Shown: positions 30,768 to 48,551 of the stretch, piece after piece
Numbering within the stretch: position 1 is the stretch's first letter
Layout: the number at the start of each line of letters is the position of its first letter
Assembly (NCBI GenBank): GCA_041650835.1
Contig: JBAZKL010000001.1
Coordinates: forward strand, 101,094-165,093
Direction: 5' to 3'
Length of the DNA: 64,000 nucleotides
DNA from: Candidatus Omnitrophota bacterium
Lineage (GTDB): Bacteria; Omnitrophota; Gorgyraeia; Gygaellales; Profunditerraquicolaceae
Position numbers and translations under genes: made by a program
The notes under the pieces: generated by a model
What the model saw: the letters and a program-made list of their open reading frames with translations, nothing else
What the model was told of the DNA's origin: nothing
The model's database searches: none

Positions 30768-30775
30768 TATTGCCT

Positions 30776-32327: not shown

Positions 32328-32348
32328 ATGTACCGGCTCCTTTCATTA

Positions 32349-33014: not shown

Positions 33015-33038
33015 AACATCACCCGCTTTCTCTATATA

Positions 33039-34640: not shown

Positions 34641-34677
34641 GGTTGCGGCCCTTTAATCGCCTGCGTGCTCAAACACC

Positions 34678-35562: not shown

Positions 35563-35623
35563 GTTTGAGTAAGATAGGGGAAGGGCACGGCGGTCTCACT
35601 TTGCCGTGCCCTTCCCTTCACAT

Positions 35624-36439
35624 TTACTTTAACCCGACATATCCTTCACCCTCAACGAGCGCCTGACCAGCCTTACTTTTTACAAAATCCAGATATTCTT
35701 TTACCATTCCTTGCGGCTTGCCCTTAGAATACATAAAAAGCGGGCGGGTCACGGGATATTCTCCGGATAAAACTGTTTCTTTTGAGGCCACGACCCCATC
35801 GATCTCAAGAGCCTTGATATCCGAGGTCAGGAATCCCAATCCGACATAACCGATCGCGGCCGGAGTCTGAGTAACGTTCTGGGCGACCGCTTGGTTTGAA
35901 GCCTGCATCAACGCGTCAGGCCTGACCTTCTGGTTGTCCATCACCAAAACCCCGAACGCTTCAAAAGTCCCGCTTGAAGTATCCCGGGAAATAACCACGA
36001 TCTTACCCGGATTACCGCCTATTTGCGACCAATCGGAAACTCTCCCCGCGAAAATGTCCTTTACCTGCTTTTTAGAAAGTTTAGATAACGGGTTGGATTT
36101 GTTCACTACTACCGCGATACCATCCATCGCGACGATATGAGCAACAGGGTCCCTGCCGTTCGCGGCCGCCTGCTGAATCTCAGTATCTTTGATCGCCCGT
36201 GAAGCATCGGCTATATCGCAGGTGCCGTCAATAAGAGCGGCGATACCAACGCTTGAGCCTCCGCCCCGCACCGATATATCGGCGTTCGCGTTTGAGTCCA
36301 TAAAAGCCTCAGCGGTCTTCTGCGCGATAGGAAGCACCGTTGTAGAACCGGCGATAACGATCTTCTCGGCGAAACAAGCTGTGGCAGCAAGGCTTAAACC
36401 CGCAATTCCCGCCAGCATCAACATGACAAACTTTTTCAT
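35624..36439 (-). CDS. pstS: Phosphate-binding protein PstS
   Basis: Signal peptide plus PBP-like IAGSTTV...SRDTSSGT motifs. Confidence 0.85.
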   Translation of the reverse strand: MKKFVMLMLAGIAGLSLAATACFAEKIVIAGSTTVLPIAQKTAEAFMDSNANADISVRGGGSSVGIAALIDGTCDIADASRAIKDTEIQQAAANGRDPVAHIVAMDGIAVVVNKSNPLSKLSKKQVKDIFAGRVSDWSQIGGNPGKIVVISRDTSSGTFEAFGVLVMDNQKVRPDALMQASNQAVAQNVTQTPAAIGYVGLGFLTSDIKALEIDGVVASKETVLSGEYPVTRPLFMYSKGKPQGMVKEYLDFVKSKAGQALVEGEGYVGLK

Positions 36440-36516
36440 AATACCTATCCTCCTTAGTTATTACCCGCTGAGAGCAGCGCTCTTACGGGCTATATTTTCC
36501 CGGGACTGCAGACCTC

Positions 36517-37818
36517 TTAAAACTTCAAGTTCCAATCAACCTGAATCAAAGTTTCCGGAGCAAACGGCTTTGCCAATTTCTGCGCGCGGTAAACGTCGAG
36601 TTCAAGCCATGTATTCTTACCTAAACCATACGCGAATTTAAATTCATGGGCCTTTATATTCGTCTGCCCGCCATAACGGTCGGAATCAGGCAAAATATCA
36701 AGGATCGCGTTTCTCTCAAGCCTGACAAAATTGTAGGTAGCCTGCCAATCGCCCCATCCGGCGATCTTCTCGGCTCCTAAACTCGCCCCGAACATCTGCC
36801 CGGTCTTATTATCATCCGGTACGACATCGGCTATATTAGTCACAAATTCACCGAATAATTTCAGCTGAGGCACATTAAGGAAACTAACGCCTAAAGCGCT
36901 GAACGGCTCTTTGATCTTAACTTCTACCGCGGGCGATACCGTAAAGAAATTCGCGGTAGGATACGCGAATCCTCCTTTTGAACCGGTGTTTGTATTTGTG
37001 CTGCCGTCCAAAGCATGATTTTTAACCACAAAATAATCAAGCGCGACGCCGCTCTTTAAAGAAATAGTATCCGACAATTTACCGGTAAAGCCCGGCTGCA
37101 TATGAACAAAATACGGGTCATCATTGCTGCCGCTGATCTCTTCCAGGAAATACACGCCGGATTTCAGGAACATGTTCAAGGAAGGATTAACCTTTTTATT
37201 TACGTCGAATGCCACGCCTTCAGGAGTGATATCGGTATCCCAGATCATATCTCCCGGCTCCCAAACCGAGTCGCTCAACAATAATTTCCCCCCGAAAAGC
37301 GCAAATCCCGGAAAAGGCATATACTTGGCGTAGGCGTAATCCAGGTTGAAGGGCTTTTTCGCGAAAGAATTACCTAAGGACTGGTTCGTGGAACGCACCG
37401 TATCGGCGCTGGTAGCGGTATATTCGTTGAGTCCCGTTCCCAAGCCGAAAGCAACAAGCAGCTTTTCATTGACCTTTGATTCCATTCCTAATCTCAGCCT
37501 GATACGCGCCCTCTGCCGATTATTCGTGATATCGTTGGCCGCCTTGGCATGATTGACCTGATAGCGAAGCCTGAAATCGCCTTTAAGTTTTATATTCTGG
37601 ACCCAAGCCGGCAAAGTCGCCGAAGTACTGGTCGCGATCTCTTTCTTTACCTGCTCCTGCGTCTCGATCTTGACCTGCTGCGCTTCCGCGCCGGTCAACA
37701 CCCCTTTTTCAACAAGCTTCTGTAACAAGAGGTCGATTTCTCCCGCGTATGAAGTACGCATCCCTGTTGCCGCTACGATAAATCCAAGCAATACTGCCGC
37801 TGCTACAAACTTCCTCAT
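36517..37818 (-). CDS. Outer-membrane porin, probable phosphate-selective OprO/P-like
   Basis: Signal peptide, N-terminal coiled coil, beta-rich body ending in ...WNLKF. Sits immediately upstream of pstS. Confidence 0.6.
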   Translation of the reverse strand: MRKFVAAAVLLGFIVAATGMRTSYAGEIDLLLQKLVEKGVLTGAEAQQVKIETQEQVKKEIATSTSATLPAWVQNIKLKGDFRLRYQVNHAKAANDITNNRQRARIRLRLGMESKVNEKLLVAFGLGTGLNEYTATSADTVRSTNQSLGNSFAKKPFNLDYAYAKYMPFPGFALFGGKLLLSDSVWEPGDMIWDTDITPEGVAFDVNKKVNPSLNMFLKSGVYFLEEISGSNDDPYFVHMQPGFTGKLSDTISLKSGVALDYFVVKNHALDGSTNTNTGSKGGFAYPTANFFTVSPAVEVKIKEPFSALGVSFLNVPQLKLFGEFVTNIADVVPDDNKTGQMFGASLGAEKIAGWGDWQATYNFVRLERNAILDILPDSDRYGGQTNIKAHEFKFAYGLGKNTWLELDVYRAQKLAKPFAPETLIQVDWNLKF

Positions 37819-38126
37819 TTTCCTTCCTCCTTTTAATAAGGCCTCAATTTACGGAACAGCTTAAACGTAAATTGCCGGGCCGGATTTTCCCCGCGCCGAA
37901 GCAAGGGGCACTCGTTATTGTATCCGCGTTCATCGATCAACTTTATTCTTGAGCGAATTGTTTATAAAAAAGATCCATTGCCCTTTGCTCTTCATCAAAA
38001 ACTTCTTTCAGGTATTCCGAGACCTTCTTGAGTATTTTTGCTATGATTTTATTCATCCTCTTTTAACCGTCTCTTCCTGCCGGCTTTCTTTCATTGCTTT
38101 AGTTTACAAAACCCAGGTAACAAAAT

Positions 38127-38156
38127 CCTTAACGCTTTGTGAACTTTCTGTGAAAT
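38127..38156 (+). promoter_or_regulatory. Conserved motif CCTTAAcG-TTTGTGAACTTTCTGTGAAAT (Pho-box-like direct repeats), copy i
   Basis: One of 4 copies of CCTTAAGG followed by TGTGAA-N5-(T/G)GTGAA with 11-bp periodicity. Confidence 0.45.
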
Positions 38157-38178
38157 CAAGAAAACTCAAATTCTCGCG

Positions 38179-38880
38179 TTAAGCCGACGAATCAAATTTG
38201 TACCCTTCTCCCTTTACTGTCCTGATCAACTGCGGATCTTCGGGGTCTTTTTCTATCTTTTCCCTCAAATGCCTTATATGGACATCGATGTTCCCGTATT
38301 CGACAATATTGTCCTGCCCCCAGACGGCATCCAGGATCGCGCTGTGGCTCAGTACTATACCGGGATTATTGATGAATAGCTTAAGCACGCCTCTTTCTTT
38401 CTCCGTAAAGGCTATTCTCTGATCGTTACGTTTTACCTCTAAATTTTCCTGATCGATCTCAAGTGAGCCGATCTTGATGATCTTTAAGCTTGAATTCTTG
38501 TTCTCCGACCGAGCTAAGACCCTTTTTACCCGCACTACCAGTTCGCGGGGGCTGAACGGCTTGGTGACGTAATCATCCGTGCCGAGGTCAAAACCCTTTA
38601 GTTTATCCTCGATCTCGGAAAGCGCGCTGAGTATAATAATAGGTATATGCCTGGTCTGCGGGTTATGCTTTAAACGCCGGCAGACTTCCCACCCGTCGAT
38701 CCTGGGCAGCATAATATCGAGGATAATAAGCGCGGGATTTTGAGTATTGCAGATCTCTAATGCTTCGATGCCATTGTTCGCGGAAACCACATCGTAACCG
38801 GCTATCGTCATATGAAAAGCGATCAACTTTATGATCTCCTTTTCATCCTCAACGATCAGTATCTTTCTTTTCAGCACCAT
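38179..38880 (-). CDS. OmpR-family response regulator (PhoB/PhoP-like), orphan
   Basis: REC plus Trans_reg_C. No adjacent kinase. Confidence 0.8.
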   Translation of the reverse strand: MVLKRKILIVEDEKEIIKLIAFHMTIAGYDVVSANNGIEALEICNTQNPALIILDIMLPRIDGWEVCRRLKHNPQTRHIPIIILSALSEIEDKLKGFDLGTDDYVTKPFSPRELVVRVKRVLARSENKNSSLKIIKIGSLEIDQENLEVKRNDQRIAFTEKERGVLKLFINNPGIVLSHSAILDAVWGQDNIVEYGNIDVHIRHLREKIEKDPEDPQLIRTVKGEGYKFDSSA

Positions 38881-38986
38881 ATCTGCTCCTTTTCGTAGCC
38901 GGCGAAATACGCCGTAATCGCGGGCAACGCAGCCTGGTATTTTCTCATGCTTACAAAGAAAGTATACAAAACCAAGGTTACAATAT

Positions 38987-39016
38987 CATTAAGGGATTGT
39001 GACTTTATGGTGAATT
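38987..39016 (+). promoter_or_regulatory. Pho-box-like motif copy ii (CATTAAGGGATTGTGACTTTATGGTGAATTT)
   Basis: Same architecture as the 38127 motif, about 110-140 nt upstream of the orphan response-regulator gene. Confidence 0.4.
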
Positions 39017-39799
39017 TGCATTTGACGTAAGGAAGCGGTTAATTTCTTCCACGTTCAAGAAGTCACCGGATTTACGGAATAATTCCCTGCTCAATAAGAG
39101 CGTTTCGATGCCCTGCTCATGCTGGCCGTTCAAATAATAGGCGTTGGCCAAAAGCCGGCAGGCCGCTGCATCCTCGGGAAACGATTCCAGGACCATTTGA
39201 GCGTATTCGATAGCCTTGCAATAATCGTCGGAAAAATAATGCGCCAACGCCAGGTTATACATCACGTCGGGGTCATTCGTTTTCATTTCCAAAGCCCTCA
39301 TCAGCTCAGGGATCGCTTCCCGGTACTTTTGGTTTAATAACAGCTCCAGCCCTTTGAACACGTAAGAGGCGTATTCTTTGCTTACCGCGCCGCTCTTTAA
39401 TTCGCGTAAAAGGCCCAGCGCTCCGGCGGCATCGAAACCGCAACCAACAGCCCGCACTTGATTGAATTCTTTTTCAGCCTCATCGAATTTGTCTTGCGAG
39501 GCGCACGCCACGCCTTTTTTGAATGAGCGTCCGGTATCCTCAAGGGCTGCTTCATCAGCCGCGGGTAAAGCGGGGCCCTCTTCAATACTCCGGATATATT
39601 TATTCTCGTAATAAACAGGCCCTGAGGCAGTATCGATCGCGATATAATCTTTTTGTTTCTCGGTAATCTTACCTTCTGTTCTTTTACCCGACTTAAGCGT
39701 AACTATATCGGCAAAAAGCGAGCCTCCGTGATAAAAAACGCATATAAAAATAACTGCCGATGTAAAAGCTCTTACGAACCTGTTTTTTACCTTGATCAT
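39005..39799 (-). CDS. TPR-repeat protein with N-terminal signal anchor
   Basis: TPR-like helical repeats (AYYLNGQHEQGIE...) and an N-terminal hydrophobic segment. Confidence 0.6.
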   Translation of the reverse strand: MIKVKNRFVRAFTSAVIFICVFYHGGSLFADIVTLKSGKRTEGKITEKQKDYIAIDTASGPVYYENKYIRSIEEGPALPAADEAALEDTGRSFKKGVACASQDKFDEAEKEFNQVRAVGCGFDAAGALGLLRELKSGAVSKEYASYVFKGLELLLNQKYREAIPELMRALEMKTNDPDVMYNLALAHYFSDDYCKAIEYAQMVLESFPEDAAACRLLANAYYLNGQHEQGIETLLLSRELFRKSGDFLNVEEINRFLTSNANSP

Positions 39800-39800
39800 T

Positions 39801-42800
39801 TTATACTCCCGGTGAAAACGTTAATCGCGCCAAATTCTCCCTGAAGAGGCCTTCCGTCCCGTTATTTTCAAGCAGTCCCAGGAAATCAGGAAGAAGCGCG
39901 TCCACATGAACGCAGTGAGCTTCCTCTAACCGCAGGATCTGCCGCATCCAAACGCGCACATACCTGATACATTCGGATAACCGCTCTTTACTGATCTTCG
40001 CTTCCATATATTCCTTAATACGCTCCAAAGATGGGATAATCCCTGCCTCGATAAGATGCTGTATGTCCCTGCCCTCAAGGTCATCAGCCGGTATTTCGGC
40101 GGGGAAAAATCCTCCATGGCCGATGGGCTCACCCTGCGTAACAACAAACGCGGAAGAGGCCGAACGCAGGTCGATCCCGCCTAATCCGGATTGTCCCGGG
40201 TTCTTCTCAACGCGTATAGCCGAAGAACTCGGCGCAACGCTCATCCCCGGGAACAGGACTTCCCCCGCGATTGCCTGAGGGACAAATACTTCATCCTTGG
40301 CCTTACGTGCCGCTGGGACTGCCTTCCCGGGATGCCCCCGTAAATAACCGCCAAGCTCCTGCATTCTCTTGCGCTGGATCCGGCTTTTATCCATTCTCAC
40401 GTAAAACGACCCCAGCGGATAAGACGAAAAATAACCTATGTCCCGGAAGCATTTCTTTATAGTATCCTTGTTCTCAAAATAATATTTGAACAGTTCATGG
40501 AAAGCCAGTATTTCTTTATCCTCCAAAGAATAATAAACATCATCGCTGCCTACCGCCGCCGCGGTATATGTGGAAAACTTCCCCGAATTCAATACCCGCA
40601 GGAGAGGGATAATAATGAACGGCATGATCCGGTAATTGTCATATCCTTCCTGAATATGTCTTTCCATAATAGGCTTCAGGCCGTTCACCGCGACCCGCGC
40701 GAACATCCTGCCCTGCTGCGGCTCCAGGCTGAACATGAACCCGCCGGTAGAAGCTAAGACATCGCTCTGCTCGAATTCAGCGTCGCCGATATGCTTCCAG
40801 TCGATAAAAGAATAGAACGGCTCATGCTTTAATTTTGTCTTTAACGTCGCGTGGTCGGCTTTTTCATATACCTCTGCCAAGCCGTTGCGGGAGCCGTTAT
40901 TGACCCCGGGGACCAGCACCCCGAACTTCTGGTCAATGACCTGTTCGAGTTTGGTCCACATGCCCCATAAAGTCACATTCGCGGTAGGGACAAAATTGCC
41001 TACCGGTATCCCATTAGAGAACATGACCATCATTTTATCGCTCTGAAGCCCGCCGGGATCATGAGGATTTTCCATGCCGGCGTTCTGAATGGTTTTCAAT
41101 AAAAGATATTCTATCCCCGTGAAAGGCCTGCCCAGGGCTTTCGCCGGCGGCAAGGGCAAAGGCTTGAATAATTCTCCGGAATTCCGGCTAAAACCGTCTA
41201 CAAACACAACCGCTTTTTTCATCCGTGTCGCGTCTTTACCATTAAGGCCCGGATATCGCGAGGTGAAATCCTTGAATTCCTGAGAATAGTAAAGATAGTC
41301 ATAAAGTTCGCAAAAACGCTGGGCGTTCTCTTTGCTTTCCGAGAATAAATATACGACGGGGAATTTCTTCTTCGCAAAGATCCCCAACGAACCCTTTACA
41401 TGCGCCATCAACTTTTCTTTATCATCTCCGCTTATTACCACGATCGCCACATCCGCGGGCAATTCTTTTTCCAACAGGCCGACAGTCGCGTCATATTCGA
41501 ATTTGAGCCGGGCCTGCCTGAAATCAACGGTTTTCCTGCCGTTCGTTTCCTGCTGCAAAAGGCGGTCATACTCTTCGACAACCCTGCTCATCTCCTTATA
41601 AAAAGGGTTCTTTACCAACTTCACTACCGCCCAGGAAAGCAGGAATGATATCCATCCCAGAAAGAACGCTCCCAGGCCGATCCATCCGACAATAGTAGCG
41701 GGAGGAGACAGCGTGACCACCATATTCATGAATGAATAACTTCCCGCGATAATGCCGCAAATACCCCCGAATCGCCCGTACATGCCTCTATTTTTCCATT
41801 TTTTTTCCAGATGCAATAAAAACGACGAATCCACCTTAAGGCCGTCAAACCATTGCTGCCAATCGTCAATGATCGTATTTTCCTTACCCGCGTACATCTC
41901 AGGCTCGACCGGCTGAGCGTACTTGAACAAACCGTGTATTTTACTTTTAAACCTTTCCATATCTTTACTGCTCATCCGTAAGCCATACCAGCACCTTACA
42001 AACCATGTATAGAAACGGCCCATCATCCCGAATTTCCTGAGCTTGTAACTGAAAGCCATCTGGAATTTATACGCGGTATTGGCATTATCTTCATACTCTA
42101 AAGCGTACGTTCCGATACGCTGCAGTTTTTCGATATCCATCTCTATCGACCGGCGCTGCTCGTCTGACATCGAGGCATGGCCGCGCAATTGAAGAAAAAG
42201 CCTGCGCTGTGTTTCCAGAGATAACTTGGTCATTTCCTGGAACGTTTTCACAAGCGGTTTTACGTTCTGATCAATGATCTCCCGCGTAAAAGGGAGCCCC
42301 CTGATCAGGGAATGCGCGATATTATTGATGGTAACGCGATCATAGTCCGTCAGGAAGCCGGACTTCTTTGACCGCAGGGACAGCTTCCATTGATTAAGGA
42401 AAGTCTTGACCAGCTCCTGGCTGAAACGATTTTCTTTGCTTTGGTTATACCAGCGGTCTTCTTCCGCGATAAATGAATTCTGCAGCAGGTCCGTGCCATT
42501 GCCTTTATTCCACCAGCGGTATAGATAATACGAAACAACCCCTCCCGCCAGTATCCCCAAACCGATCAACAAATACGGTGAAGCAAGCCACTGGCCGAGA
42601 TTTTCAAAAAGACCACTTCCCCTATCGAAATCCCCTCTTCCCGCCAATGGGTCAAGAGGCAACATCCCCGTGTCAAGGTCGCCGCGCCCTGCCAGGGGCC
42701 CGGTTCTTGGCATATCAGGGATATACGGCGGCGCGGAACCAAAAGGAACTGCCTGTCCGGTTAAATAGGCAATGGCTTCCGGGGTCGCGTATTCCTGAGG

Positions 42801-44468
42801 TATAGCGATATGCTGCCCGGAAAAAATAAGGTCGGGATCAGCGATACTTGAGTTAACGGTAAGGATCTTCCTGACCAAATTCGCTACTTCGGTATTACCC
42901 GGCTCTAAAACACCGTTGCCTTTAAGCACGTCGCGGGCGATCCCCCAAAGCGTATTCTCGGCAGGGTTAACGAATGACCAGTTTTGCGGCACAGAAAGTA
43001 ATCCCAGGCCTTTGGCGACAAATTGATGAGCAAACGCTAATCCCGGGACAAAAAAAGAACCGAAGATAAAAGCTGCAGAAACCAGTGTCTTCAATGAAGG
43101 CCGAAACCTTTCCAGGGATCCTATTTTGCGCTCTTTTAAGGGAGAGCCGGCGCTACGCGCCGGAACTTTCTCCGGGGCATCCGCGCGCGCGGGCTGCGTG
43201 ACGGCCGATAAAACCTCTTTATTGCCTTGTGTGGTATCGACCACATGCATTTTGCCTTCTTTATAGATAAATTCGGCTAATTCCGGGCTGAAAAAGATCG
43301 CTCCGTCATTCTCGCGGTTCCCGCCGATCAAACTCCGCTGTTCTCCTTCCGGGGAAGTATAGGTCTTTGCCTGTCCGGGTTTAAGCGGATGGGAGAATAA
43401 CTCAGGCATACAAGCAAGAAAATTGATCCCCCCGCTCAAGTATGTCCTGATAACCTGCCCGAAAGCGCCGGGGACGGCGGTCTTAAGATTGTATTCTCCC
43501 CGTTCAAAAGATTCCCGGTATTGCCTGAAATAATCCTCCTTTGACCAGGGTCCTGCCGAGGTCAAACCGGTAAGGTCTCCTTGATCTATGAACGCGGCGT
43601 ATATCCCGCCTTTGCCGGAGAAACGCGCCTTGAACCACTGAGCAAGGATCAATGAGTAGTAAACCTGCCTCAAAGAAGCGTAACGTTTCGCGGTATTGAC
43701 ATCATGAGTAAGCTTGGGAATGATCAACGCTTTAAGCAGGCAGGAAGAATATTCATTCAACTCTTTTAACCGTTCATCTTTAAGATCATAGGCACCGCTA
43801 TCTTTCAGATGATCATGTTCCAGCATTACCTTAAGCGTGGCCTTATAGATATAGGCGTTATCAACCGATTCCCGGATAATGATCTCACCCGGGACTATCC
43901 AGGGGCGGGTGATCGTAGGAATAACCAGGTTATCACCGCCAAAGAGAGCTTCTGCCTTGCGGTATAGTTTATCCCAGTATTCTTTACCCTCGGGTGTTTC
44001 AGGAGAGCTAAAGAGCGCGGTATCTTTCTTAAGCTGCAGGTCGGCTTCCAGAAGGATCATCCCGACATCCGTCCTGGCTAAATTATCGTCTATGATAGTA
44101 TCTTGCGAATCAGGCCGCAGGTTCACCCAAAAAGCGTCATTCGGCAGGCTTATCCCGACAAAAAAATAGTTGAGAAGCGTTTGCGCGTTATTTTCGGTTA
44201 TCCGCTTATTCAGTCCGCTCAGGCCGCCTTTATCGACCAGGCAGCTGAAATTATTATTACGGCCGTCGTAGGAAAGATACCGTAAATACTCAAAACCGGA
44301 CATGCCGGGAACAGGAGTATTTCTTAAGAAAGCTGTCCGCGAAGAGATATCCAATTCCCCGGCAACCTGAGCAATACCGCTTTGATGGAACAACAAGCAA
44401 AGAGAGAGCGCGGAAATGATTATTTTGTCCACGCAGAAACGCTCACCCTGCAGCATATGGCCCCTCAA
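39801..44468 (-). CDS. Giant (1555-aa) multidomain membrane protein: signal peptide, LysM-like domain, PLAGRGD repeats, 3 TM segments, and large domains of unknown function
   Basis: LysM pattern NTLWGIARDVL...NLVRKILTVN...GQHIAIPQ. Tandem PLAGRGDLD/PLAGRGDFD repeats. TM helices at ~aa 640, 905 and 930. No other recognisable domain. Confidence 0.6.
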   Translation of the reverse strand: MRGHMLQGERFCVDKIIISALSLCLLFHQSGIAQVAGELDISSRTAFLRNTPVPGMSGFEYLRYLSYDGRNNNFSCLVDKGGLSGLNKRITENNAQTLLNYFFVGISLPNDAFWVNLRPDSQDTIIDDNLARTDVGMILLEADLQLKKDTALFSSPETPEGKEYWDKLYRKAEALFGGDNLVIPTITRPWIVPGEIIIRESVDNAYIYKATLKVMLEHDHLKDSGAYDLKDERLKELNEYSSCLLKALIIPKLTHDVNTAKRYASLRQVYYSLILAQWFKARFSGKGGIYAAFIDQGDLTGLTSAGPWSKEDYFRQYRESFERGEYNLKTAVPGAFGQVIRTYLSGGINFLACMPELFSHPLKPGQAKTYTSPEGEQRSLIGGNRENDGAIFFSPELAEFIYKEGKMHVVDTTQGNKEVLSAVTQPARADAPEKVPARSAGSPLKERKIGSLERFRPSLKTLVSAAFIFGSFFVPGLAFAHQFVAKGLGLLSVPQNWSFVNPAENTLWGIARDVLKGNGVLEPGNTEVANLVRKILTVNSSIADPDLIFSGQHIAIPQEYATPEAIAYLTGQAVPFGSAPPYIPDMPRTGPLAGRGDLDTGMLPLDPLAGRGDFDRGSGLFENLGQWLASPYLLIGLGILAGGVVSYYLYRWWNKGNGTDLLQNSFIAEEDRWYNQSKENRFSQELVKTFLNQWKLSLRSKKSGFLTDYDRVTINNIAHSLIRGLPFTREIIDQNVKPLVKTFQEMTKLSLETQRRLFLQLRGHASMSDEQRRSIEMDIEKLQRIGTYALEYEDNANTAYKFQMAFSYKLRKFGMMGRFYTWFVRCWYGLRMSSKDMERFKSKIHGLFKYAQPVEPEMYAGKENTIIDDWQQWFDGLKVDSSFLLHLEKKWKNRGMYGRFGGICGIIAGSYSFMNMVVTLSPPATIVGWIGLGAFFLGWISFLLSWAVVKLVKNPFYKEMSRVVEEYDRLLQQETNGRKTVDFRQARLKFEYDATVGLLEKELPADVAIVVISGDDKEKLMAHVKGSLGIFAKKKFPVVYLFSESKENAQRFCELYDYLYYSQEFKDFTSRYPGLNGKDATRMKKAVVFVDGFSRNSGELFKPLPLPPAKALGRPFTGIEYLLLKTIQNAGMENPHDPGGLQSDKMMVMFSNGIPVGNFVPTANVTLWGMWTKLEQVIDQKFGVLVPGVNNGSRNGLAEVYEKADHATLKTKLKHEPFYSFIDWKHIGDAEFEQSDVLASTGGFMFSLEPQQGRMFARVAVNGLKPIMERHIQEGYDNYRIMPFIIIPLLRVLNSGKFSTYTAAAVGSDDVYYSLEDKEILAFHELFKYYFENKDTIKKCFRDIGYFSSYPLGSFYVRMDKSRIQRKRMQELGGYLRGHPGKAVPAARKAKDEVFVPQAIAGEVLFPGMSVAPSSSAIRVEKNPGQSGLGGIDLRSASSAFVVTQGEPIGHGGFFPAEIPADDLEGRDIQHLIEAGIIPSLERIKEYMEAKISKERLSECIRYVRVWMRQILRLEEAHCVHVDALLPDFLGLLENNGTEGLFRENLARLTFSPGV

Positions 44469-44484
44469 GGAAACACATATCCTA

Positions 44485-44682
44485 TCAATAAATATTGGTT
44501 CCGATATCCGTCAACTTCAATTCTTTATTTCTTGCAGACAACGGGTATTCCCGGTCACTGCCCGTCACTAATAAAGCTAATTTCTTTATGTATTCTTCAC
44601 AACAATTATTCCATCCAATATCTTCCAGGCTTTGAGGATTAAGGACTTTTTTAGGAATAATTTCCGTAAAGGTGTCACTCAT
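44485..44682 (-). CDS. Small hypothetical protein (65 aa)
   Basis: Start reassigned to MSDTFTEII..., preceded by a strong AAGGAGGG RBS. Confidence 0.45.
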   Translation of the reverse strand: MSDTFTEIIPKKVLNPQSLEDIGWNNCCEEYIKKLALLVTGSDREYPLSARNKELKLTDIGTNIY

Positions 44683-44775
44683 GCGTCCCTCCTTATTTAT
44701 AGTGCTTAAGCTTCGGCTCAACCCGGCAAAACTGTCCGCTTAACTATTCATCAAGAAGAGTATACATTAAGAGAC

Positions 44776-44808
44776 GCAACAAATTCCTTAAGGTTTTGTG
44801 AACTTTTC
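44776..44808 (+). promoter_or_regulatory. Pho-box-like motif copy iii (CCTTAAGGTTTTGTGAACTTTTCGTGAAC)
   Basis: Perfect CCTTAAGG palindrome, then direct repeats TGTGAAC-N4-CGTGAAC. Lies between the phoR stop and the small ORF / giant gene. Confidence 0.45.
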
Positions 44809-44855
44809 GTGAACTTTCGACAAGAAATTGTGACAAACAGGAAATGCGCGGAGTG

Positions 44856-46631
44856 TTACGCCAGAGGAATGGTAAAACTGAAGGTAGAACCGGCGCCAAG
44901 TTCAGATTTAACCCAGACCTGGCCGCCGTGGGCGGATACAATGTGTTTAACGATGGCTAGGCCCAGCCCCGTACCCCCGAGTTCGCGGGAACGGGCTTTG
45001 TCCGCGCGGTAGAAACGCTCGAATACGCGGGGAAGGTCTTTTTCGGAAATACCGATCCCGGTATCAGCAATATCGATTTGTAAAGCGTCATCGGTTGCCT
45101 TGGCGGAAATGACAACCGTTGCTCCTTCAGGCGAGTATTTAAGAGCGTTATCGAGTATGTTGATCATGACCTGCGAAAACCTTGCTTCATCAACACGGAT
45201 CTTAGGCAACCCCGGGAGGAGATCGATCTTGAGTGAGATCGATTTTGCCTTAGCTTGATTATCAATGATCGTTATCGCTCTTTTTATCAACACAACAGGG
45301 TCAAGTGACTCAAAAGACATCTTTAACTTGCCTGACTCTATCTTTGATAGATCAAGCAGATCGTTTATAAGGGCGGCCAGGCGGTCGGCGTCCTGACAAA
45401 TGATGCTCATGAATTCCTGAGCGTGGTCCTTATCATCGAGGGCGCCCTCAAGAAGCGTTTCGGCATAGCCTTTGATGCTTGATATCGGAGTGCGCAGTTC
45501 ATGAGAAACATTGGCGACAAAATCCCGCCTCATTTTTTCCAGGCGCCTTAATTCAGTAATATCGTGAAATACCAATATCGCCCCTTCAAGTTTTCCGTTA
45601 CTCATGATCGGCACGCCGTTCACCTTAAGGATCTTTTCATCCGGTGCGTGGACAACGATCTCTTCGATCGCAAGCTGCTGACCTCCCGTAATGATCCTTT
45701 CCACCATATCTTCCACCGAGGTATTACGGACAACCTCCAGCATCATCTTACCTTCAGGGTTTGATTCAATGAAGAAAAGCTTTCTTAAAGAAGGATTCAT
45801 CAGAAGGATATTTTCATCCGCGTCGGTAACGATCACCCCTTCGAACATGCTCGAGAGGACCAGGTCGAGTTTTGCCTTCTCTGAATTGATCTTTTCGATC
45901 TTATCCTTGATCTCATCAGACATGGCATTTAATGAACGGGCAAGTTCGCCGATCTCATCCTTGAAATAGAGAGAAGCTTTCCGGGAAAAATCGCCCCGCG
46001 CCATGAGTTTGGCGATCGCCGACATCTCTTGGAGGGGGCGTGAAACAAATACGGACACCAAATAAGTCAAACCGAGGCTTAAGAGCAATATCCCGGCAAC
46101 GCTCACCCCTACTACCCTAAGCATCTTTGACTGCAGCAATTCAACATCAAGCAGAGGGACGGAAAAGCGCAATATCCCTTCAGTTTTTTCCCGGCCAAAA
46201 GGCATTGCCGTATAAAGCATATCTTTCTTGACCGTATAACTAAAACGATTACTTACCCCCAGGCCGCGCAGTAACGCCTCCTTTACTTCAGGCCTGTTCG
46301 CGTGATTTTCAACGGCGACGAGCTGCTCTCTGGTTAAATCGGCATCCCCCAGCACTTTTCCGTCAAGTGAGATAATGGTCACGCGCAGGAAAAGTGCCTT
46401 GCCCATCTTAAGGGAAAGCTCCTGGAAATCAAGGGGGGCGGTTTTAGCTAAAAGATGAGTTTCCAACAGCTCCTTACCGAGAGTAAGCTGGCGTAAAACA
46501 TTTTTTCTAAGGTTACTTTCCACGAAGTACTTAAGGTGGGGGGCCAGATAAAAATATCCGGCTGAAATAGCAAGAACAACAACAAAACAAAAAACAAAGG
46601 TAAGCTTCCACGGAAGTTTGATCTTAATCAT
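44856..46631 (-). CDS. phoR: Phosphate regulon sensor histidine kinase PhoR-like (2 TM, HAMP, PAS, HisKA, HATPase)
   Basis: ANVSHELRTPISSIKGY H-box. Overlaps the upstream response-regulator gene by 8 nt. Confidence 0.8.
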   Translation of the reverse strand: MIKIKLPWKLTFVFCFVVVLAISAGYFYLAPHLKYFVESNLRKNVLRQLTLGKELLETHLLAKTAPLDFQELSLKMGKALFLRVTIISLDGKVLGDADLTREQLVAVENHANRPEVKEALLRGLGVSNRFSYTVKKDMLYTAMPFGREKTEGILRFSVPLLDVELLQSKMLRVVGVSVAGILLLSLGLTYLVSVFVSRPLQEMSAIAKLMARGDFSRKASLYFKDEIGELARSLNAMSDEIKDKIEKINSEKAKLDLVLSSMFEGVIVTDADENILLMNPSLRKLFFIESNPEGKMMLEVVRNTSVEDMVERIITGGQQLAIEEIVVHAPDEKILKVNGVPIMSNGKLEGAILVFHDITELRRLEKMRRDFVANVSHELRTPISSIKGYAETLLEGALDDKDHAQEFMSIICQDADRLAALINDLLDLSKIESGKLKMSFESLDPVVLIKRAITIIDNQAKAKSISLKIDLLPGLPKIRVDEARFSQVMINILDNALKYSPEGATVVISAKATDDALQIDIADTGIGISEKDLPRVFERFYRADKARSRELGGTGLGLAIVKHIVSAHGGQVWVKSELGAGSTFSFTIPLA

Positions 46632-47313
46632 TTTCTTGAAATCTATAGCCTAATCCTCTGACCGTTTCGATTTGATCCCCTATCTTTCCGAGCTTTTCTC
46701 TCAAGCGTTTGATATGGGTATCAACGGTCCGGGTAAACACATTCGCGTGCATATCCCAGACATCAGACAATAACTGCTCCCGCGACTGGATGCGGCCGGT
46801 CCTTTCAACAAGCGTGACAAGAAGTTTAAACTCCAGGGGAGTGAATTCGATCTCTTTAGTATTGACCGTCACTTTATGTTTAGGGATATCAATGGACAAT
46901 CCCCCTTGTCTTATAATATCTTTGGGAGATCCTTCAGTTTTGCCCCTTCTCAGGATCGCTTTTACGCGCAGCATCAATTCCCGGGGGCTAAAAGGCTTGA
47001 CCACATAATCATCAGCTCCAAGTTCGAGGCCGACTATCCTATCCACCTCCTCTCCTTTTGCGGTCAGCATAATAACAGGGATATCTTTAAGTTTAGTATT
47101 TTGCTTAATTGCGCGGCATACCTCAAAGCCATCCATCTTAGGGAGCATAATATCTAAAACGATCAAGTCCGCGCCCTGTTTAGTTAAAACATCCAGGGCC
47201 TTTTCGCCGTCTTCTACGACCGTAGGGTCATAACCGGCTTTCTCGGCGTTATATTTTACAAGCTTAGCTATATGTTTATCGTCTTCGATTATAAGTATTT
47301 GTTCTTTAGGCAT
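46624..47313 (-). CDS. phoB: OmpR-family response regulator PhoB-like
   Basis: REC plus Trans_reg_C. Translationally coupled to the PhoR-like kinase. Confidence 0.8.
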   Translation of the reverse strand: MPKEQILIIEDDKHIAKLVKYNAEKAGYDPTVVEDGEKALDVLTKQGADLIVLDIMLPKMDGFEVCRAIKQNTKLKDIPVIMLTAKGEEVDRIVGLELGADDYVVKPFSPRELMLRVKAILRRGKTEGSPKDIIRQGGLSIDIPKHKVTVNTKEIEFTPLEFKLLVTLVERTGRIQSREQLLSDVWDMHANVFTRTVDTHIKRLREKLGKIGDQIETVRGLGYRFQEND

Positions 47314-47545
47314 AGATACCTCGTTAACCGGCTCTTAAAAATCCCCCCCTTAGAAATATCAAAACAATATGAACCGGAAAAATAGTCTTATCAATCCGGA
47401 TATTTATAATAAGTATAACAAACTATAATGAGATATTCTATATAATTATTCTTCTGATCACAGGGGAATGACCCGCGTGAGTATTATGAGCCACATAAAC
47501 CCAGGCTTTCCTCCGGAGATGATACTTAACAATAAATTATCACTT

Positions 47546-47578
47546 CCTTAAGGATTCTTTGTCATTTTGTGGTATAAT
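47546..47578 (+). promoter_or_regulatory. Pho-box-like motif copy iv fused to an extended -10 (TTTGTCATTTTGTGGTATAAT)
   Basis: CCTTAAGG, then TTGTCAT-N4-TGTGGTATAAT. The -10 ends 7 nt before the ATG at 47586, which implies a leaderless or near-leaderless mRNA. Confidence 0.5.
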
Positions 47579-47585
47579 TAACGGT

Positions 47586-48551
47586 ATGAAAAATAATTAC
47601 TTCGCGGGAATCGATATCGGCGGAACAAAAATAGCCGCAGCCTTGGCGACTAAAGACGGGAAGATCCTCAGCCGCAGCAAGTCTCCCACCCCCAAAAACG
47701 CATCCCCTGCTAAAATAGCCTCCATCGTAGCCGACCTGCTGGAAGAGATGCTTTACGCCTGCGGCATTAACAAAAAGGAATTATGTGGTGTCGGGATAGG
47801 GATCCCCGGAATAATCGACTCCGTTTCCGGGAAGATCCTGCGCACACCAAATATGCATATCGCAGGGGCAAATCTCCAAAAACAACTCAAGAAAAGGCTC
47901 AACATCAACTGTTGCCTCGGCAATGATGTTAATTTAGGGACCTTGGGGGAAAAATGGCTCGGCGCGGCAAAGAAAGCAAAGAATGTCGTCGGACTGTTCA
48001 TCGGCACAGGCATTGGCGCCGGGATCATTATTGACGGCAAGCTCTTTACCGGCAGCCACGGCGCTGCCGCGGAGATCGGCCACATGATCATTCAAGGCAG
48101 CGGCCCAAAATGCAGTTGCGGGAATACCGGCTGCCTGGAATCACTCGCCGGCAGATGGGCGATAGAAAGAGATATCAGGCAGGAAATTAAAAAAGGCAAA
48201 AAAACGCTCCTTACCAAACTTCTTGATAAGAATTCAGACCCTATCAAAAGCAAGATATTGCGCAAATCACTTGAAAAGCATGATAGGCTTACTGTCAAAA
48301 TACTTAAAGCGGCGGCGGAACAAATAGGTATCGCCTGCGTGTCCATCAGGCATATATTCGACCCGGAGATGATCGTGCTCGGCGGCGGAGTTATAGAAGC
48401 ATGCGCGGGCTTCATATTGCCGATAGTCAAGAAAACCGCGCAAAAAGACAAATTCTTTTCCACTATAGGAAGCTGCGAGATCGTCGCATCCAAGCTGGGA
48501 GATGATGCTATCGTTTTAGGAGCTATTAAACTATCCCAACAACACTCCTAA
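47586..48551 (+). CDS. ROK-family sugar kinase (glucokinase-like)
   Basis: GIDIGGTKI, the zinc motif CSCGNTGCLE and ASKHA fold. Only plus-strand gene in the window. Start taken at MKNNYF. Confidence 0.8.
   Translation: MKNNYFAGIDIGGTKIAAALATKDGKILSRSKSPTPKNASPAKIASIVADLLEEMLYACGINKKELCGVGIGIPGIIDSVSGKILRTPNMHIAGANLQKQLKKRLNINCCLGNDVNLGTLGEKWLGAAKKAKNVVGLFIGTGIGAGIIIDGKLFTGSHGAAAEIGHMIIQGSGPKCSCGNTGCLESLAGRWAIERDIRQEIKKGKKTLLTKLLDKNSDPIKSKILRKSLEKHDRLTVKILKAAAEQIGIACVSIRHIFDPEMIVLGGGVIEACAGFILPIVKKTAQKDKFFSTIGSCEIVASKLGDDAIVLGAIKLSQQHS

What the first reader, a model, noticed from the sequence alone, without database searches (positions are those of the whole stretch)
38127..47578. Four co-oriented copies of a CCTTAAGG + TGTGAA-N5-GTGAA motif flanking the Pho genes: a candidate Pho box for this lineage
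The same ~30-bp architecture recurs at 38127, 38987, 44776 and 47546. It is a CCTTAAGG palindrome (or a near variant), then two direct heptamers TGTGAA(C/A) with 11-bp periodicity.

Each copy sits in an intergenic region of the phosphate cluster. These are upstream of the porin-pst operon, upstream of the orphan PhoB-like regulator, upstream of the small ORF plus the 1555-aa protein, and fused to the -10 of the ROK kinase promoter in the position a Pho box normally takes.

Direct repeats with 11-bp phasing are the hallmark of OmpR-family (PhoB/PhoP) binding sites. This predicts that the giant LysM protein and the ROK kinase are phosphate-starvation regulated.

One oddity: all four copies are on the plus strand although three of the neighbouring operons are on the minus strand.
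Basis: partly seen in the sequence, partly recalled or inferred. Interest (0 to 1): 0.6.

Follow-up and report, generated by a model that had tools for sequence, protein, structure and literature searches.

The report
Pho boxes in an Omnitrophota genome
Three (possibly four) promoters in the phosphate-gene cluster of an uncultured Omnitrophota bacterium carry the classic four-repeat docking site for a phosphate-starvation regulator, each pointing towards its own gene; the switch is an ordinary kind, but it links an uncharacterised 1,555-residue membrane protein to phosphate scarcity.

Summary
Read towards the downstream gene, each site is four hexamers at 11-bp spacing: TTCACA-n5-TTCACA-n5-TTAAGG-n5-GTTACC. 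A -10 box (TAtACT) follows 8-10 nt later and there is no -35. This matches the published Bacillus subtilis Pho box (four TT(A/T/C)ACA-like units, 11-bp period).

Sites 1-3 lie on the minus strand, like their operons. Site 4 is the mirror image on the plus strand. The "all on the plus strand" oddity comes from the palindromic CCTTAAGG, which is just repeat unit 3.

A matrix built only from 13 sites in related Omnitrophota genomes ranks the four sites as the top four of about 128,000 window positions. The box recurs upstream of porin-pst operons, the orphan regulator, PstS, a phosphate-selective porin, a glycerophosphodiesterase and orthologues of the 1,555-aa protein. It is not a dispersed repeat.

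Site 4 (ROK kinase) is weak. It is not conserved, and ROK promoters share an extended -10 that should not need an activator.

Verdict: tandem Pho boxes, a new member of a known kind. The main new content is the conserved Pho-box control of an Omnitrophota-specific giant protein plus its TPR partner. Binding and phosphate induction remain untested.

The parts
38116..38154 (-). Pho-box array 1. Four units read on the minus strand: TTCACA (38149-38154), TTCACA (38138-38143), TTAAGG (38127-38132), GTTACC (38116-38121). Promoter of the small ORF-porin-pstSCAB-phoU-arsC operon.
   Evidence: 20/24 to TT[ACT]ACA x4, the best hit in the window. 52.9 bits with the relatives-only PWM. Orthologous boxes in L006:4800, L007:3834, L004:7673 and others.
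38101..38106 (-). -10 box TAAACT of promoter 1, 9 nt downstream of unit 4. No -35 match at 17-nt spacing.
   Evidence: Read from the sequence. TAnnnT sits at exactly this offset in 40 of 51 non-redundant related boxes.
38976..39014 (-). Pho-box array 2: TTCACC, GTCACA, TTAATG, GTAACC. Promoter of the orphan OmpR-family regulator. Unit 1 overlaps the last codons of the TPR gene.
   Evidence: 18/24. 52.9 bits. Orthologous boxes upstream of orphan-regulator orthologues in L006:3927, L007:3025 and in 18+19 metagenome or other loci.
38961..38966 (-). -10 box TATACT of promoter 2.
   Evidence: TATACT is the commonest -10 in 105 related boxes.
44775..44813 (-). Pho-box array 3: TTCACG, TTCACA, TTAAGG, GTTGCG. 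Promoter of the ORF78-1555-aa protein-TPR operon.
   Evidence: 18/24. 22.7 bits, never reached in random sequence. Boxes of 36-40 bits precede the full-length orthologues in L086-L088. L003 and L057 are further cases.
44759..44764 (-). -10 box TATACT of promoter 3, 10 nt after unit 4.
47526..47564 (+). Candidate Pho-box array 4, read on the plus strand: TTAACA, TTATCA, TTAAGG, TTGTCA. Lies upstream of the ROK kinase. Doubtful.
   Evidence: 19/24 but only 11.0 bits, a score reached by 3-9% of random sequences. The nearest relatives have a 1-nt deletion and a degenerate unit 4. The box is absent from ROK orthologues at 69-76% identity.
47570..47578 (+). Extended -10 (TGGTATAAT) of the ROK promoter, 8 nt after unit 4. 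ATG at 47586.
   Evidence: TGnTATAAT is conserved before all ROK orthologues examined.
46624..47313 (-). PhoB-like response regulator. Most likely binder of the boxes.
   Evidence: Response_reg + Trans_reg_C. Best NCBIfam hit is PhoB TIGR02154 at 256.6 bits, below the 296.2 cut-off. Best solved relative is RegX3. Recognition helix TRTVDTHIKRLREKL resembles that of PhoB.
44856..46631 (-). PhoR-type sensor kinase (TM-HAMP-PAS-HisKA-HATPase).
   Evidence: Pfam. Passes the NCBIfam PnpS cut-off, 441.5 against 400.
38179..38880 (-). Orphan OmpR-family regulator (RpaA/RpaB-like). It is itself box-controlled and is an alternative or additional binder.
   Evidence: In most relatives it lies directly after phoB-phoR and before the porin-pst operon.
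31893..38056 (-). Target operon 1: 37-aa ORF, Porin_5 porin, pstS, pstC, pstA, pstB, phoU, arsC-type LMWPc.
39005..44721 (-). Target operon 3: ORF78 (44485-44721), 1555-aa protein (39801-44468), TPR protein (39005-39799).
   Evidence: The gene pair and its box are conserved in L086-L088.
47586..48551 (+). ROK-family sugar kinase. Doubtful target of site 4. Convergent with CHAD-ppk-ppx.
   Evidence: The synteny is conserved in L093-L096.

Best explanation
Sites 1-3 are tandem Pho boxes. They are operators for a phosphorylated OmpR/PhoB-family response regulator. The most likely binder is the PhoB-like protein at 46624-47313, partnered with the PhoR/PnpS-type kinase at 44856-46631.

Each operator has four 11-bp direct-repeat units: consensus (G)TTCACA, (G)TTCACA, (C)TTAA(G/T)G, GT(T/A)AC(A/C). 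They span about -60 to -22, on the same strand as the gene. The last unit ends 9 nt before a TAtACT -10 box, and no -35 element is present.

Inferred mechanism, by analogy with E. coli PhoB and B. subtilis PhoP. Under phosphate limitation the kinase phosphorylates the regulator. Two head-to-tail dimers occupy the four units on one face of the helix. They take the place of the missing -35 by contacting sigma region 4 and so switch on transcription.

Targets in this window:
1. The porin-pstSCAB-phoU-arsC operon.
2. The orphan RpaA/B-like regulator.
3. The ORF78-1555-aa protein-TPR operon.

Site 4 (ROK) may be a weak fourth member.

Shown here: the motif, its geometry, its orientation, its conservation and the genes it precedes. 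Inferred: who binds it, that it activates, and that phosphate is the signal.
For: 1. Anatomy. There are four hexamers at exact 11-bp spacing, followed by a -10 at 8-10 nt, and all are co-oriented with the downstream gene.

2. Match to independent published consensus sequences:
- B. subtilis: four TT(A/T/C)ACA-like units with 11-bp periodicity (PMC11870197, citing Eder 1999).
- S. coelicolor GTTCACC and E. coli CTGTCAT, in 11-nt direct-repeat units (PMC4415409).
- Synechocystis CTTAACCT, three or more copies, 8+3 bp (PMC1906773).
- The window sites score 18-20 of 24 and are the top hits.

3. Non-circular PWM test. A matrix built only from 13 sites in relatives ranks the four sites first to fourth among about 128,000 positions: 52.9, 52.9, 22.7 and 11.0 bits, against a next best of 5.2.

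4. Phylogenetic footprint. In pstS-anchored loci from 13 Omnitrophota MAGs (PstS 64-90% identical), every hit at >=18/24 is intergenic. Each is co-oriented with a porin, the orphan regulator, a receiver-only regulator ahead of the porin, a TPR protein or a big protein.

5. Function-blind survey. An exact-pattern scan of metagenomes gave 82 matches in 71 contigs, 79 of them outside long ORFs. Downstream genes include a receiver-only regulator followed by a porin (29), orphan-regulator orthologues (18) and the giant-protein family (7 plus about 6). Single cases are PstS, Porin_O_P (phosphate-selective porin) and GDPD.

6. Outside the bases fixed by the search pattern, 51 non-redundant sites conserve TA.ACT at +48..+53. 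TAnnnT is at offset 9 in 40 of 51.

7. Specificity. Of 121 hits at >=12 bits in 670 kb of loci, only 4 are inside long ORFs. Four control loci (44 kb of housekeeping context) have nothing above 3.8 bits. Similarity among the window sites is confined to about 60 bp.

8. Cognate machinery. The kinase passes the PnpS (Firmicute-type PhoR) cut-off. The regulator's best hits are PhoB and RegX3.
Against: - No binding or expression data exist for any Omnitrophota.
- The regulator scores below the PhoB equivalog cut-off (256.6 against 296.2).
- phoB-phoR itself has no box in 19 relatives, unlike the autoregulated phoBR/phoPR of the model organisms.
- ppk, ppx and CHAD have no box in the window.
- Units 3 and 4 differ systematically from units 1 and 2, so two different proteins or a hybrid site cannot be excluded.
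- The orphan regulator, always flanked by two boxes, is an equally placed candidate binder.
- The crude consensus score is not strongly period-specific within the window alone.
- Only 64 kb of an 868-kb contig could be scanned, so genome-wide specificity for this organism is untested.
- The metagenome survey used a pattern derived from sites 1 and 2, so it is enriched for orthologous promoters.
Confidence: 0.8

Rival explanations
1. The arrays are the operator of the orphan RpaA/RpaB-like regulator (38179-38880) rather than of the PhoB-like protein. This would be a positive autoregulatory loop that also drives the adjacent porin-pst operon. PhoB would act elsewhere, or only by phosphorylation cross-talk through PhoR.
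For: - The orphan regulator gene is flanked by two boxes in the window and in most relatives, and it is the commonest box-controlled gene.
- phoB-phoR itself lacks a box.
- The orphan regulator keeps a PhoB-like recognition helix (IDVHIRHLREKI) and wing.
- Its best matches are RpaB and RpaA. From memory, their sites are direct repeats of (G/T)TTACA, similar to unit 4 (GTTACA).
Against: - It has no kinase of its own.
- In relatives it sits directly after phoB-phoR, which fits a Pho-regulon member or second output.
- Distant lineages (L086-L088) keep the box in front of the Big-TPR operon, in loci where no orphan regulator is seen within 5 kb.
- The repeat period is 11 bp, as for PhoB/PhoP. From memory, RpaB sites have a 10-bp period.
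- Either way the site is a phosphate-cluster OmpR-family operator.
Confidence: 0.15
2. Site 4 (47526-47564) is not a functional Pho box. It would be a chance resemblance in an AT-rich divergent promoter region. The ROK kinase would then be transcribed constitutively from its extended -10 promoter.
For: - It scores only 11.0 bits, a value reached by 3% of random 64-kb sequences and 9% of intergenic-like 10-kb sequences.
- The nearest relatives carry a 1-nt deletion between units 1 and 2, and their unit 4 is TTGGCC.
- ROK orthologues at 69-80% identity score 3.9, -5.4, -6.6 and -7.8 bits.
- All ROK promoters keep TGnTATAAT, a promoter type that by established knowledge works without a -35 or an activator.
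Against: - It scores 19/24 against the independent B. subtilis consensus, second best in the window.
- It is in the correct register, 8 nt from the -10, and is co-oriented with the gene.
- It lies inside the Pho cluster, and ROK is always linked to CHAD-ppk-ppx.
- A box-like remnant persists in L093 (17/24).
Confidence: 0.6
3. The motif is a dispersed repeat or mobile-element remnant, or a chance pattern, with no regulatory role.
For: Sites 1 and 2 are very alike. The exact octamer CCTTAAGG is over-represented in the window, 6 copies against 1.6 expected.
Against: - Similarity is confined to about 60 bp, with no terminal repeats.
- Copies occur only upstream of, and co-oriented with, a small set of gene families across many lineages.
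- Spacing to a -10 box is fixed.
- Control loci have no copies.
- Only 3 of 82 exact-pattern matches and 4 of 121 PWM hits fall inside long ORFs.
Confidence: 0.02
4. The conserved block is the promoter of an alternative sigma factor, with an upstream element and an unusual -35, rather than a response-regulator operator.
For: The block has a fixed distance to the -10, and a conserved TTAAGG lies near the -35 position.
Against: - It consists of four phased direct repeats of one hexamer family. In some relatives all four units are TT(T/A)AC(A/C) (L010, L011).
- The -10 is sigma-70-like (TATACT).
- TTAAGG lies 20 nt from the -10, not 16-18.
- No sigma factor gene is linked to the cluster.
Confidence: 0.03

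Closest known systems
Bacillus subtilis PhoP-activated promoters (Pho box: four TT(A/T/C)ACA-like units, 11-bp periodicity; PMC11870197, citing Eder et al. 1999)
   Same: - Four hexamers at an 11-bp period on the coding strand, covering about -60 to -20, with no -35.
- Units 1 and 2 (TTCACA) fit TT(A/T/C)ACA exactly.
- The sensor kinase has the Firmicute PhoR/PnpS architecture and passes the PnpS cut-off.
- The pst operon is the prime target.
   Different: - The phylum is Omnitrophota, with an outer membrane. The operon starts with a porin.
- Unit 3 is systematically TTAA(G/T)G and unit 4 is GT(T/A)AC(A/C).
- phoB-phoR itself carries no box, whereas B. subtilis phoPR is autoregulated.
- The regulon contains lineage-specific giant proteins.
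Escherichia coli Pho box (two 11-bp direct-repeat units, CTGTCAT core, replacing the -35; PMC4415409)
   Same: - 11-bp units bound head-to-tail.
- The array ends about 10 bp upstream of the -10 and takes the place of the -35.
- Tandem boxes lie in front of pstS.
   Different: The core sequence is TTCACA, not CTGTCAT. The regulator scores below the PhoB equivalog cut-off. The kinase is PnpS/PhoR of the Gram-positive type rather than the proteobacterial PhoR model (308.8 against 334.2).
Streptomyces coelicolor PHO box direct-repeat units (GTTCACC core; PMC4415409, PMC2275107)
   Same: The heptamer GTTCACA of units 1 and 2 differs from GTTCACC at one position. The units are 11 nt long, and their number and quality vary between promoters.
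   Different: The AT-rich spacer and genome context differ. This is a different phylum, and here the array sits at a fixed distance from the -10.
Cyanobacterial SphR Pho box (three or more CTTAACCT units, 8+3 bp; PMC1906773)
   Same: Units 3 and 4 (CTTAAGG, CTTAATG, TTAACC in relatives) resemble CTTAACCT or CTTAATC. The period is 11 bp. The box lies upstream of pstS and sphX-type genes.
   Different: Units 1 and 2 are TTCACA-type. The similarity was recognised by eye and not scored.

Membership tests
Pho box (operator of a PhoB/PhoP-type response regulator) | Two or more direct-repeat units with 11-bp periodicity | tested here: met
   There are four units at exact 11-bp spacing in sites 1-4. 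The same holds in 105 unique related boxes.
Pho box (operator of a PhoB/PhoP-type response regulator) | Unit sequence within the range of experimentally defined Pho boxes (TT(A/T/C)ACA, GTTCACC, CTGTCAT, CTTAACCT) | tested here: met
   The sites score 20, 18, 18 and 19 of 24 against TT[ACT]ACA x4 and are the top hits in the window. Consensus sequences come from PMC11870197, PMC4415409 and PMC1906773.
Pho box (operator of a PhoB/PhoP-type response regulator) | Position overlapping or replacing the -35, about 10 bp upstream of a -10 box, co-oriented with the gene | tested here: met
   Unit 4 ends 8-10 nt before TAAACT, TATACT or TATAAT. TAnnnT is at offset 9 in 40 of 51 non-redundant relatives. 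No -35 match was found by inspection.
Pho box (operator of a PhoB/PhoP-type response regulator) | Occurs in front of the pst operon and other phosphate-acquisition genes | tested here: met
   The box precedes porin-pstSCAB-phoU. In relatives it precedes PstS, Porin_O_P and GDPD.
Pho box (operator of a PhoB/PhoP-type response regulator) | Conserved in orthologous promoters of related genomes | tested here: met
   Shown in 13 MAG loci, 71 metagenome contigs and L086-L088 at 35% protein identity.
Pho box (operator of a PhoB/PhoP-type response regulator) | Cognate PhoR/PhoB two-component system encoded in the genome | tested here: met
   The kinase passes the PnpS cut-off (441.5 against 400). The regulator's best hit is PhoB, but below cut-off (256.6 against 296.2). 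Its best solved relative is RegX3.
Pho box (operator of a PhoB/PhoP-type response regulator) | Bound by the phosphorylated regulator (EMSA or footprint) | not testable with these tools
   No protein-DNA binding data exist and the organism is uncultured.
Pho box (operator of a PhoB/PhoP-type response regulator) | Downstream genes induced by phosphate limitation | not testable with these tools
   No expression data were available. No paper on Pho regulation in Omnitrophota was found.
Pho box (operator of a PhoB/PhoP-type response regulator) | Autoregulation of the phoBR/phoPR operon through its own box (common but not universal) | tested here: not met
   The upstream regions of phoB orthologues in 19 relatives score 0.6 bits or less in either orientation. 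In the window the only nearby box points away from phoB.
Dispersed repeat / MITE | Many copies in unrelated contexts, similarity extending beyond a binding-site length, terminal inverted repeats | tested here: not met
   Similarity is limited to about 60 bp. Copies are restricted to promoters of a few gene families. Control loci have none.
RpaB HLR1-type site (definition from memory: two (G/T)TTACA(T/A)(T/A) repeats, 10-bp period) | Two 8-nt direct repeats separated by 2 nt | tested here: not met
   The period here is 11 bp and there are four units. A period-10 scan gives 1 cluster against 6 at period 11. The family definition was not checked in a paper.

The most novel reading that the evidence does not exclude
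The Pho regulon of Omnitrophota includes lineage-specific giant membrane proteins.

The operon of the 1,555-aa protein (N-terminal domain of unknown fold, shared with more than 800 long Omnitrophota proteins) and its TPR partner keeps a strong Pho box. It also stays embedded in pst/phoU/ppx/ppk clusters in lineages that are only 35% identical. A second giant-protein family (N-terminus ..YFFSN..ETNFWAERR..) also carries the box.

If so, at least some of the enigmatic long proteins of these ultra-small, possibly host-dependent bacteria are phosphate-starvation effectors, for example surface machinery for scavenging phosphorus.
Probability: 0.6. Interest if true: 0.55.

Novelty: new member of a known kind. 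Interest (0 to 1): 0.35.

Why it matters
- It gives the first sequence-level description of a Pho box, and a draft Pho regulon, for Omnitrophota. This phylum has no cultured model, and I found no regulatory literature on it.
- The box is sharp enough to serve as a search tool: 36-60 bits at true sites against less than 6 bits in background.
- It attaches a physiological cue, phosphate scarcity, to proteins that otherwise have no annotation. These are a conserved pair of a roughly 1,500-aa membrane protein and a TPR protein, a second giant-protein family, a receiver-only regulator that heads porin-pst operons, and an RpaA/B-like regulator.
- As a mechanism it is conventional, so the value is in annotation and hypothesis generation, not in a new principle.

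Tried and rejected
1. My first pattern, TGTGAA-N5-GTGAA, had the spacing wrong by one base and found none of the sites. I replaced it with register-aware scans.
2. The crude TT[ACT]ACA x4 count is only moderately specific as a stand-alone statistic. Periods 7 and 15 give nearly as many clusters. I therefore relied on a PWM trained on relatives.
3. An intergenic-only shuffle test failed technically. My ORF mask swallowed two of the sites, so the result is not used.
4. The 1,555-aa protein was considered as an anchor for related loci and rejected. Its N-terminal domain hits more than 800 paralogous long proteins. PstS was used instead.
5. Autoregulation of phoB-phoR was looked for and not found.
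6. A box in front of ppx-ppk-CHAD or the upstream genes (53-58 kb) was looked for and not found.
7. Conservation of site 4 in front of ROK orthologues was not found beyond the closest clade.
8. The idea that the whole giant-protein family is box-controlled was rejected. Four arbitrary members in housekeeping contexts have no box.
10. An Rfam scan of the window for leader RNAs found nothing at gathering thresholds.
11. No remnant of the receiver-only regulator gene lies between box 1 and the porin.

Full report
ORGANISM AND GENE MAP

The 1,555-aa protein in the window is 100% identical to a protein of a Candidatus Omnitrophota MAG (NCBI locus tag WC695_00660, contig 868 kb). ORF listing plus Pfam and NCBIfam scans give the map below. 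All genes are on the minus strand except ROK.

- ppx 51468-53021
- ppk1 49431-51461
- CHAD 48548-49558
- ROK kinase, plus strand, 47586-48551
- PhoB-like regulator 46624-47313
- PhoR-type kinase 44856-46631
- ORF78 44485-44721
- 1,555-aa protein 39801-44468 (no Pfam domain, so the "LysM" label is unsupported)
- TPR protein 39005-39799
- orphan OmpR-family regulator 38179-38880
- 37-aa ORF 37943-38056
- Porin_5 porin 36517-37818
- pstS, pstC, pstA, pstB, phoU and an arsC-type phosphatase (down to 31893)
- a KdpD/KdpE-like pair and TrkH

WHAT IS ACTUALLY IN THE SEQUENCE

The octamer of site 3 is at 44786, not 44776.

Reading these sites on the minus strand, which is the strand of the genes they precede, shows a longer and more regular structure. 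There are four hexamers at exact 11-bp spacing, followed by a -10 box.

- Site 1: TTCACA gaaag TTCACA aagcg TTAAGG atttt GTTACC tgggttttg TAAACT
- Site 2: TTCACC ataaa GTCACA atccc TTAATG atatt GTAACC ttggttttg TATACT
- Site 3: TTCACG aaaag TTCACA aaacc TTAAGG aattt GTTGCG tctcttaatg TATACT

The "CCTTAAGG palindrome" is unit 3.

Site 4 does not have the heptamers to the right of its octamer. It has the same four-unit layout on the plus strand, with the other units to the left: TTAACA ataaa TTATCA cttcc TTAAGG attct TTGTCA ttttgtgg TATAAT, then the ROK start codon.

So each array points towards its own gene: three on the minus strand and one on the plus strand. The reported oddity of all copies being on the plus strand arises from aligning on a palindromic unit. 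Among 105 unique related boxes only 9 carry the full palindrome. Palindromy is therefore not a feature of the element.

IS IT MORE THAN CHANCE?

I scanned both strands of the window with a consensus taken from the literature, not from this sequence. This was the B. subtilis Pho box, four TT(A/T/C)ACA-like units with 11-bp periodicity (PMC11870197). The four best non-overlapping hits are exactly the four sites, in the orientations given above: 20, 19, 18 and 18 of 24. The only other hits at 18 lie inside long ORFs.

This count is only moderately powerful. There are 6 clusters against 1.7 +/- 1.3 in dinucleotide shuffles, and 1 of 200 shuffles reaches 6. Periods 7 and 15 give 5 clusters each.

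A stronger and non-circular test used a 60-nt weight matrix built only from 13 sites found in related genomes. Across about 128,000 window positions (mean -48.8, sd 12.4) the top four are site 2 (52.9 bits), site 1 (52.9), site 3 (22.7) and site 4 on the plus strand (11.0). The next best is 5.2. Random sequences never reach 22.7. They reach 11.0 in 3% of window-like 64-kb sets and 9% of intergenic-like 10-kb sets.

Sites 1-3 are secure and site 4 is borderline.

RELATED GENOMES

A PstS-anchored scan of one genome per species returned 14 loci. Thirteen are from Omnitrophota MAGs with PstS 64-90% identical.

Every literature-consensus hit at >=18/24 in those loci is intergenic and co-oriented with the next gene. 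That gene is the porin (L005, L006, L009, L010), the orphan regulator (L006, L007) or a receiver-only regulator that heads the porin-pst operon (L004, L007, L010, L013). The others are a TPR protein (L010, 23/24) and a 1,181-aa relative of the big protein (L003, 21/24).

In some lineages all four units are plain TT(T/A)AC(A/C). One example is L011: TTAACA, TTTACA, TTAAGC, TTTACA. This argues for one repeated recognition unit rather than a composite of unrelated elements.

In most relatives the gene order is phoB-phoR-[box]-orphan regulator-[box]-(receiver)-porin-pst. The window has the ORF78-Big-TPR operon, with its own box, inserted after phoR.

A FUNCTION-BLIND SURVEY

I searched the metagenome collection for the exact pattern TTYACA-N5-TTYACA-N5-TTAAKG-N5-KTWAC. 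Chance expectation is of the order of one to ten matches (my estimate from pattern degeneracy and an assumed collection size, not a computed value). It returned 82 matches in 71 contigs, and 79 lie outside long ORFs.

For the 75 matches that have a downstream ORF on the contig, the first co-oriented gene is:

- a receiver-only regulator, often followed by a porin: 29
- an orphan-regulator orthologue: 18
- a member of the big-protein family: 7
- unknown proteins of at least 100 aa: 16
- the Porin_5 porin: 2
- PstS: 1
- a homologue of the 37-aa ORF: 1
- no ORF above the size limit: 1

The 16 unknowns include about 6 of a second giant-protein family, a phosphate-selective porin (Porin_O_P, E 2e-50) and a glycerophosphodiester phosphodiesterase (E 5e-51).

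A few matches look like noise: EF-P, a human-gut contig and an aminoglycoside acetyltransferase.

At positions not fixed by the search pattern, 51 non-redundant sites conserve TA.ACT at +48 to +53. TAnnnT sits exactly 9 nt after unit 4 in 40 of 51. This fixes the orientation and shows that the array is part of a promoter with rigid geometry.

Over all 92 loci held (670,642 nt), 121 matrix hits reach 12 bits or more, and only 4 are inside long ORFs. The 32 hits that were neither training sites nor pattern-selected lie before orphan regulators (19), receiver/porin operons (4), big proteins (4) and PstS (2). Two lie before unknown genes and one is at a contig end.

Four control loci of housekeeping context (44 kb) have nothing above 3.8 bits. 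Similarity among the window copies is confined to about 60 bp.

THE GIANT PROTEIN

Only four database proteins are full-length orthologues (35% identity, 98% coverage). Their contigs all show pstB-arsC-phoU, then the roughly 1,500-aa gene, a TPR gene (sometimes two), and then a second pstSCAB or ppx-ppk.

In the three contigs with DNA, the only strong matrix hit of each 10-13-kb locus lies directly upstream of the big gene. The scores are 36.3, 40.5 and 39.0 bits (21-22 of 24). An example is TTTACA tacaa TTCACA ttgtt TTAAAA ccgcc ATTACA tgcccgagc TATATT.

Box and synteny are thus conserved over a long evolutionary distance.

The N-terminal 340 residues are about 60% identical to more than 800 long Omnitrophota proteins with varied C-terminal modules. 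Four arbitrary members of that family lack the box. Control is therefore specific to particular members.

SITE 4 AND THE ROK KINASE

ROK is adjacent to phoB only in the window and its nearest relatives (L006, L022). There the homologous stretch has TTTACA, a 1-nt deletion, ACAACA, TTAAGG and TTGGCC.

ROK orthologues at 69-80% identity are always convergent with CHAD-ppk-ppx but have different upstream neighbours. Their upstream regions score 3.9, -5.4, -6.6 and -7.8 bits. All keep TGnTATAAT a few bases before the start codon. By established knowledge, an extended -10 works without a -35 or an activator.

I therefore rate site 4 as more likely non-functional or marginal (about 0.6) than a true box.

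The phoB-phoR operon has no box in 19 relatives. The polyphosphate genes have none in the window.

WHO BINDS, AND HOW IT PROBABLY WORKS

The kinase passes the NCBIfam cut-off for PnpS, the Firmicute-type PhoR (441.5 against 400). The adjacent regulator's best family is PhoB (256.6, below the 296.2 cut-off), and its best solved relative is the mycobacterial phosphate regulator RegX3.

The orphan regulator is closest to RpaB and RpaA and also keeps a PhoB-like helix.

By analogy with PhoB and PhoP (PMC4415409), I infer the following. Phosphate limitation leads to phosphorylation of the regulator. Two head-to-tail dimers then occupy the four units from about -60 to -22 and replace the missing -35. 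This activates the porin-pst operon, the orphan regulator gene and the Big-TPR operon.

The induced orphan regulator and, in relatives, the induced receiver-only protein suggest a second regulatory layer. This could be a feed-forward output and a phosphoryl sink, but that is speculation.

The motif, geometry, orientation, conservation and gene associations are shown here. Binding, activation and the phosphate signal are inferred.

COMPARISON WITH WHAT IS KNOWN, AND VERDICT

The element meets every sequence-level criterion of a Pho box that I could test. These are 11-bp direct repeats, unit sequences within the range of defined boxes and position in place of the -35. It also precedes pst and other phosphate genes, is conserved in orthologous promoters and has a cognate two-component system.

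- The unit sequences fall within the range of B. subtilis TT(A/T/C)ACA, S. coelicolor GTTCACC, E. coli CTGTCAT and cyanobacterial CTTAACCT (PMC11870197, PMC4415409, PMC1906773).
- It does not show autoregulation of phoBR.
- Binding and induction cannot be tested here.
- I found no paper describing phosphate regulation in Omnitrophota.

It is therefore a new member of a known kind. It is useful for annotating an uncultured phylum and for tying unannotated giant proteins to phosphate scarcity. It is not a new mechanism.

Confidence that sites 1-3 are Pho-type response-regulator operators is 0.8. Interest is 0.35.

Noticed in passing
[not shown]
   Followed up: partly
L086:1159-6431, L087:3481-8774, L088:1570-6827; window 39005-44721: The gene pair of the roughly 1,500-aa protein and the TPR protein is embedded in phosphate clusters in distant Omnitrophota lineages (35% identity). 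The layout is pstB-arsC-phoU upstream, and a second pstSCAB or His_Phos-ppx-ppk downstream.
   Followed up: yes
L024, L042, L044, L052, L075, L083 (genes downstream of the box): A second family of giant proteins (518 to 2,236 aa or more) also sits directly behind the same box. Its N-terminus reads ..YFFSN..(A/V)ETNFWAERR... The only Pfam signal is a weak ChaN/Tiki-like hit at E 5e-4.
   Followed up: partly
L004:7864-8316, L007:4026-4493, L010:8168-8572, L013:4614-5018, L094:246-707; window 37819-38100: In many relatives the first gene of the box-driven porin-pst operon is a receiver-only response regulator (134-180 aa). The window and L006 lack it. They have a small ORF instead (37 aa, 37943-38056), and tblastn finds no remnant of the receiver gene.
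   Followed up: partly
window 10997, 41834, 45623, 57646 (plus the two in boxes at 44786 and 47546): The exact octamer CCTTAAGG occurs 6 times against 1.6 +/- 1.3 expected, and 0 of 100 shuffles reach 6. With one mismatch there are 62 matches against 28 expected. Four of the six exact copies are not in Pho boxes. This is unexplained and could reflect codon or oligonucleotide bias, or a restriction-modification footprint.
   Followed up: no
window about 47455-47500: A 45-nt insertion relative to the nearest relatives (L006, L022) lies in the phoB-ROK spacer, next to a short hairpin at 47500-47517. The rest of the spacer is largely identical between the three sequences (83% mean column identity over the whole alignment).
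   Followed up: no
window 47570-47588; L093-L096 about 3985-4003: ROK kinase genes across Omnitrophota keep an extended -10 (TGnTATAAT) only about 7-10 nt before the ATG. This implies a very short leader or a leaderless mRNA. ROK is always convergent with CHAD-ppk-ppx.
   Followed up: partly
window 31893-32327: An arsC-type (thioredoxin-coupled) LMWPc arsenate reductase follows phoU in the pst operon. This position is conserved in relatives (L006, L009, L010, L086-L088). It suggests arsenate detoxification coupled to high-affinity phosphate uptake.
   Followed up: no
window 30066-31855: A KdpE-like regulator is paired with a short KdpD-like kinase (DUF4118-HisKA-HATPase, 359 aa) that lacks the N-terminal Kdp sensor domain. 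They lie next to TrkH rather than kdpFABC, and the arrangement is conserved in L006.
   Followed up: no
window 44814-44836: Upstream of unit 1 of site 3 there are two further degenerate units in approximate phase (GTCACA, TTGTCG). Site 3 may therefore have six units. This was seen by eye only.
   Followed up: no
window 1-64000: No Rfam family reaches its gathering score anywhere in the 64-kb window.
   Followed up: yes
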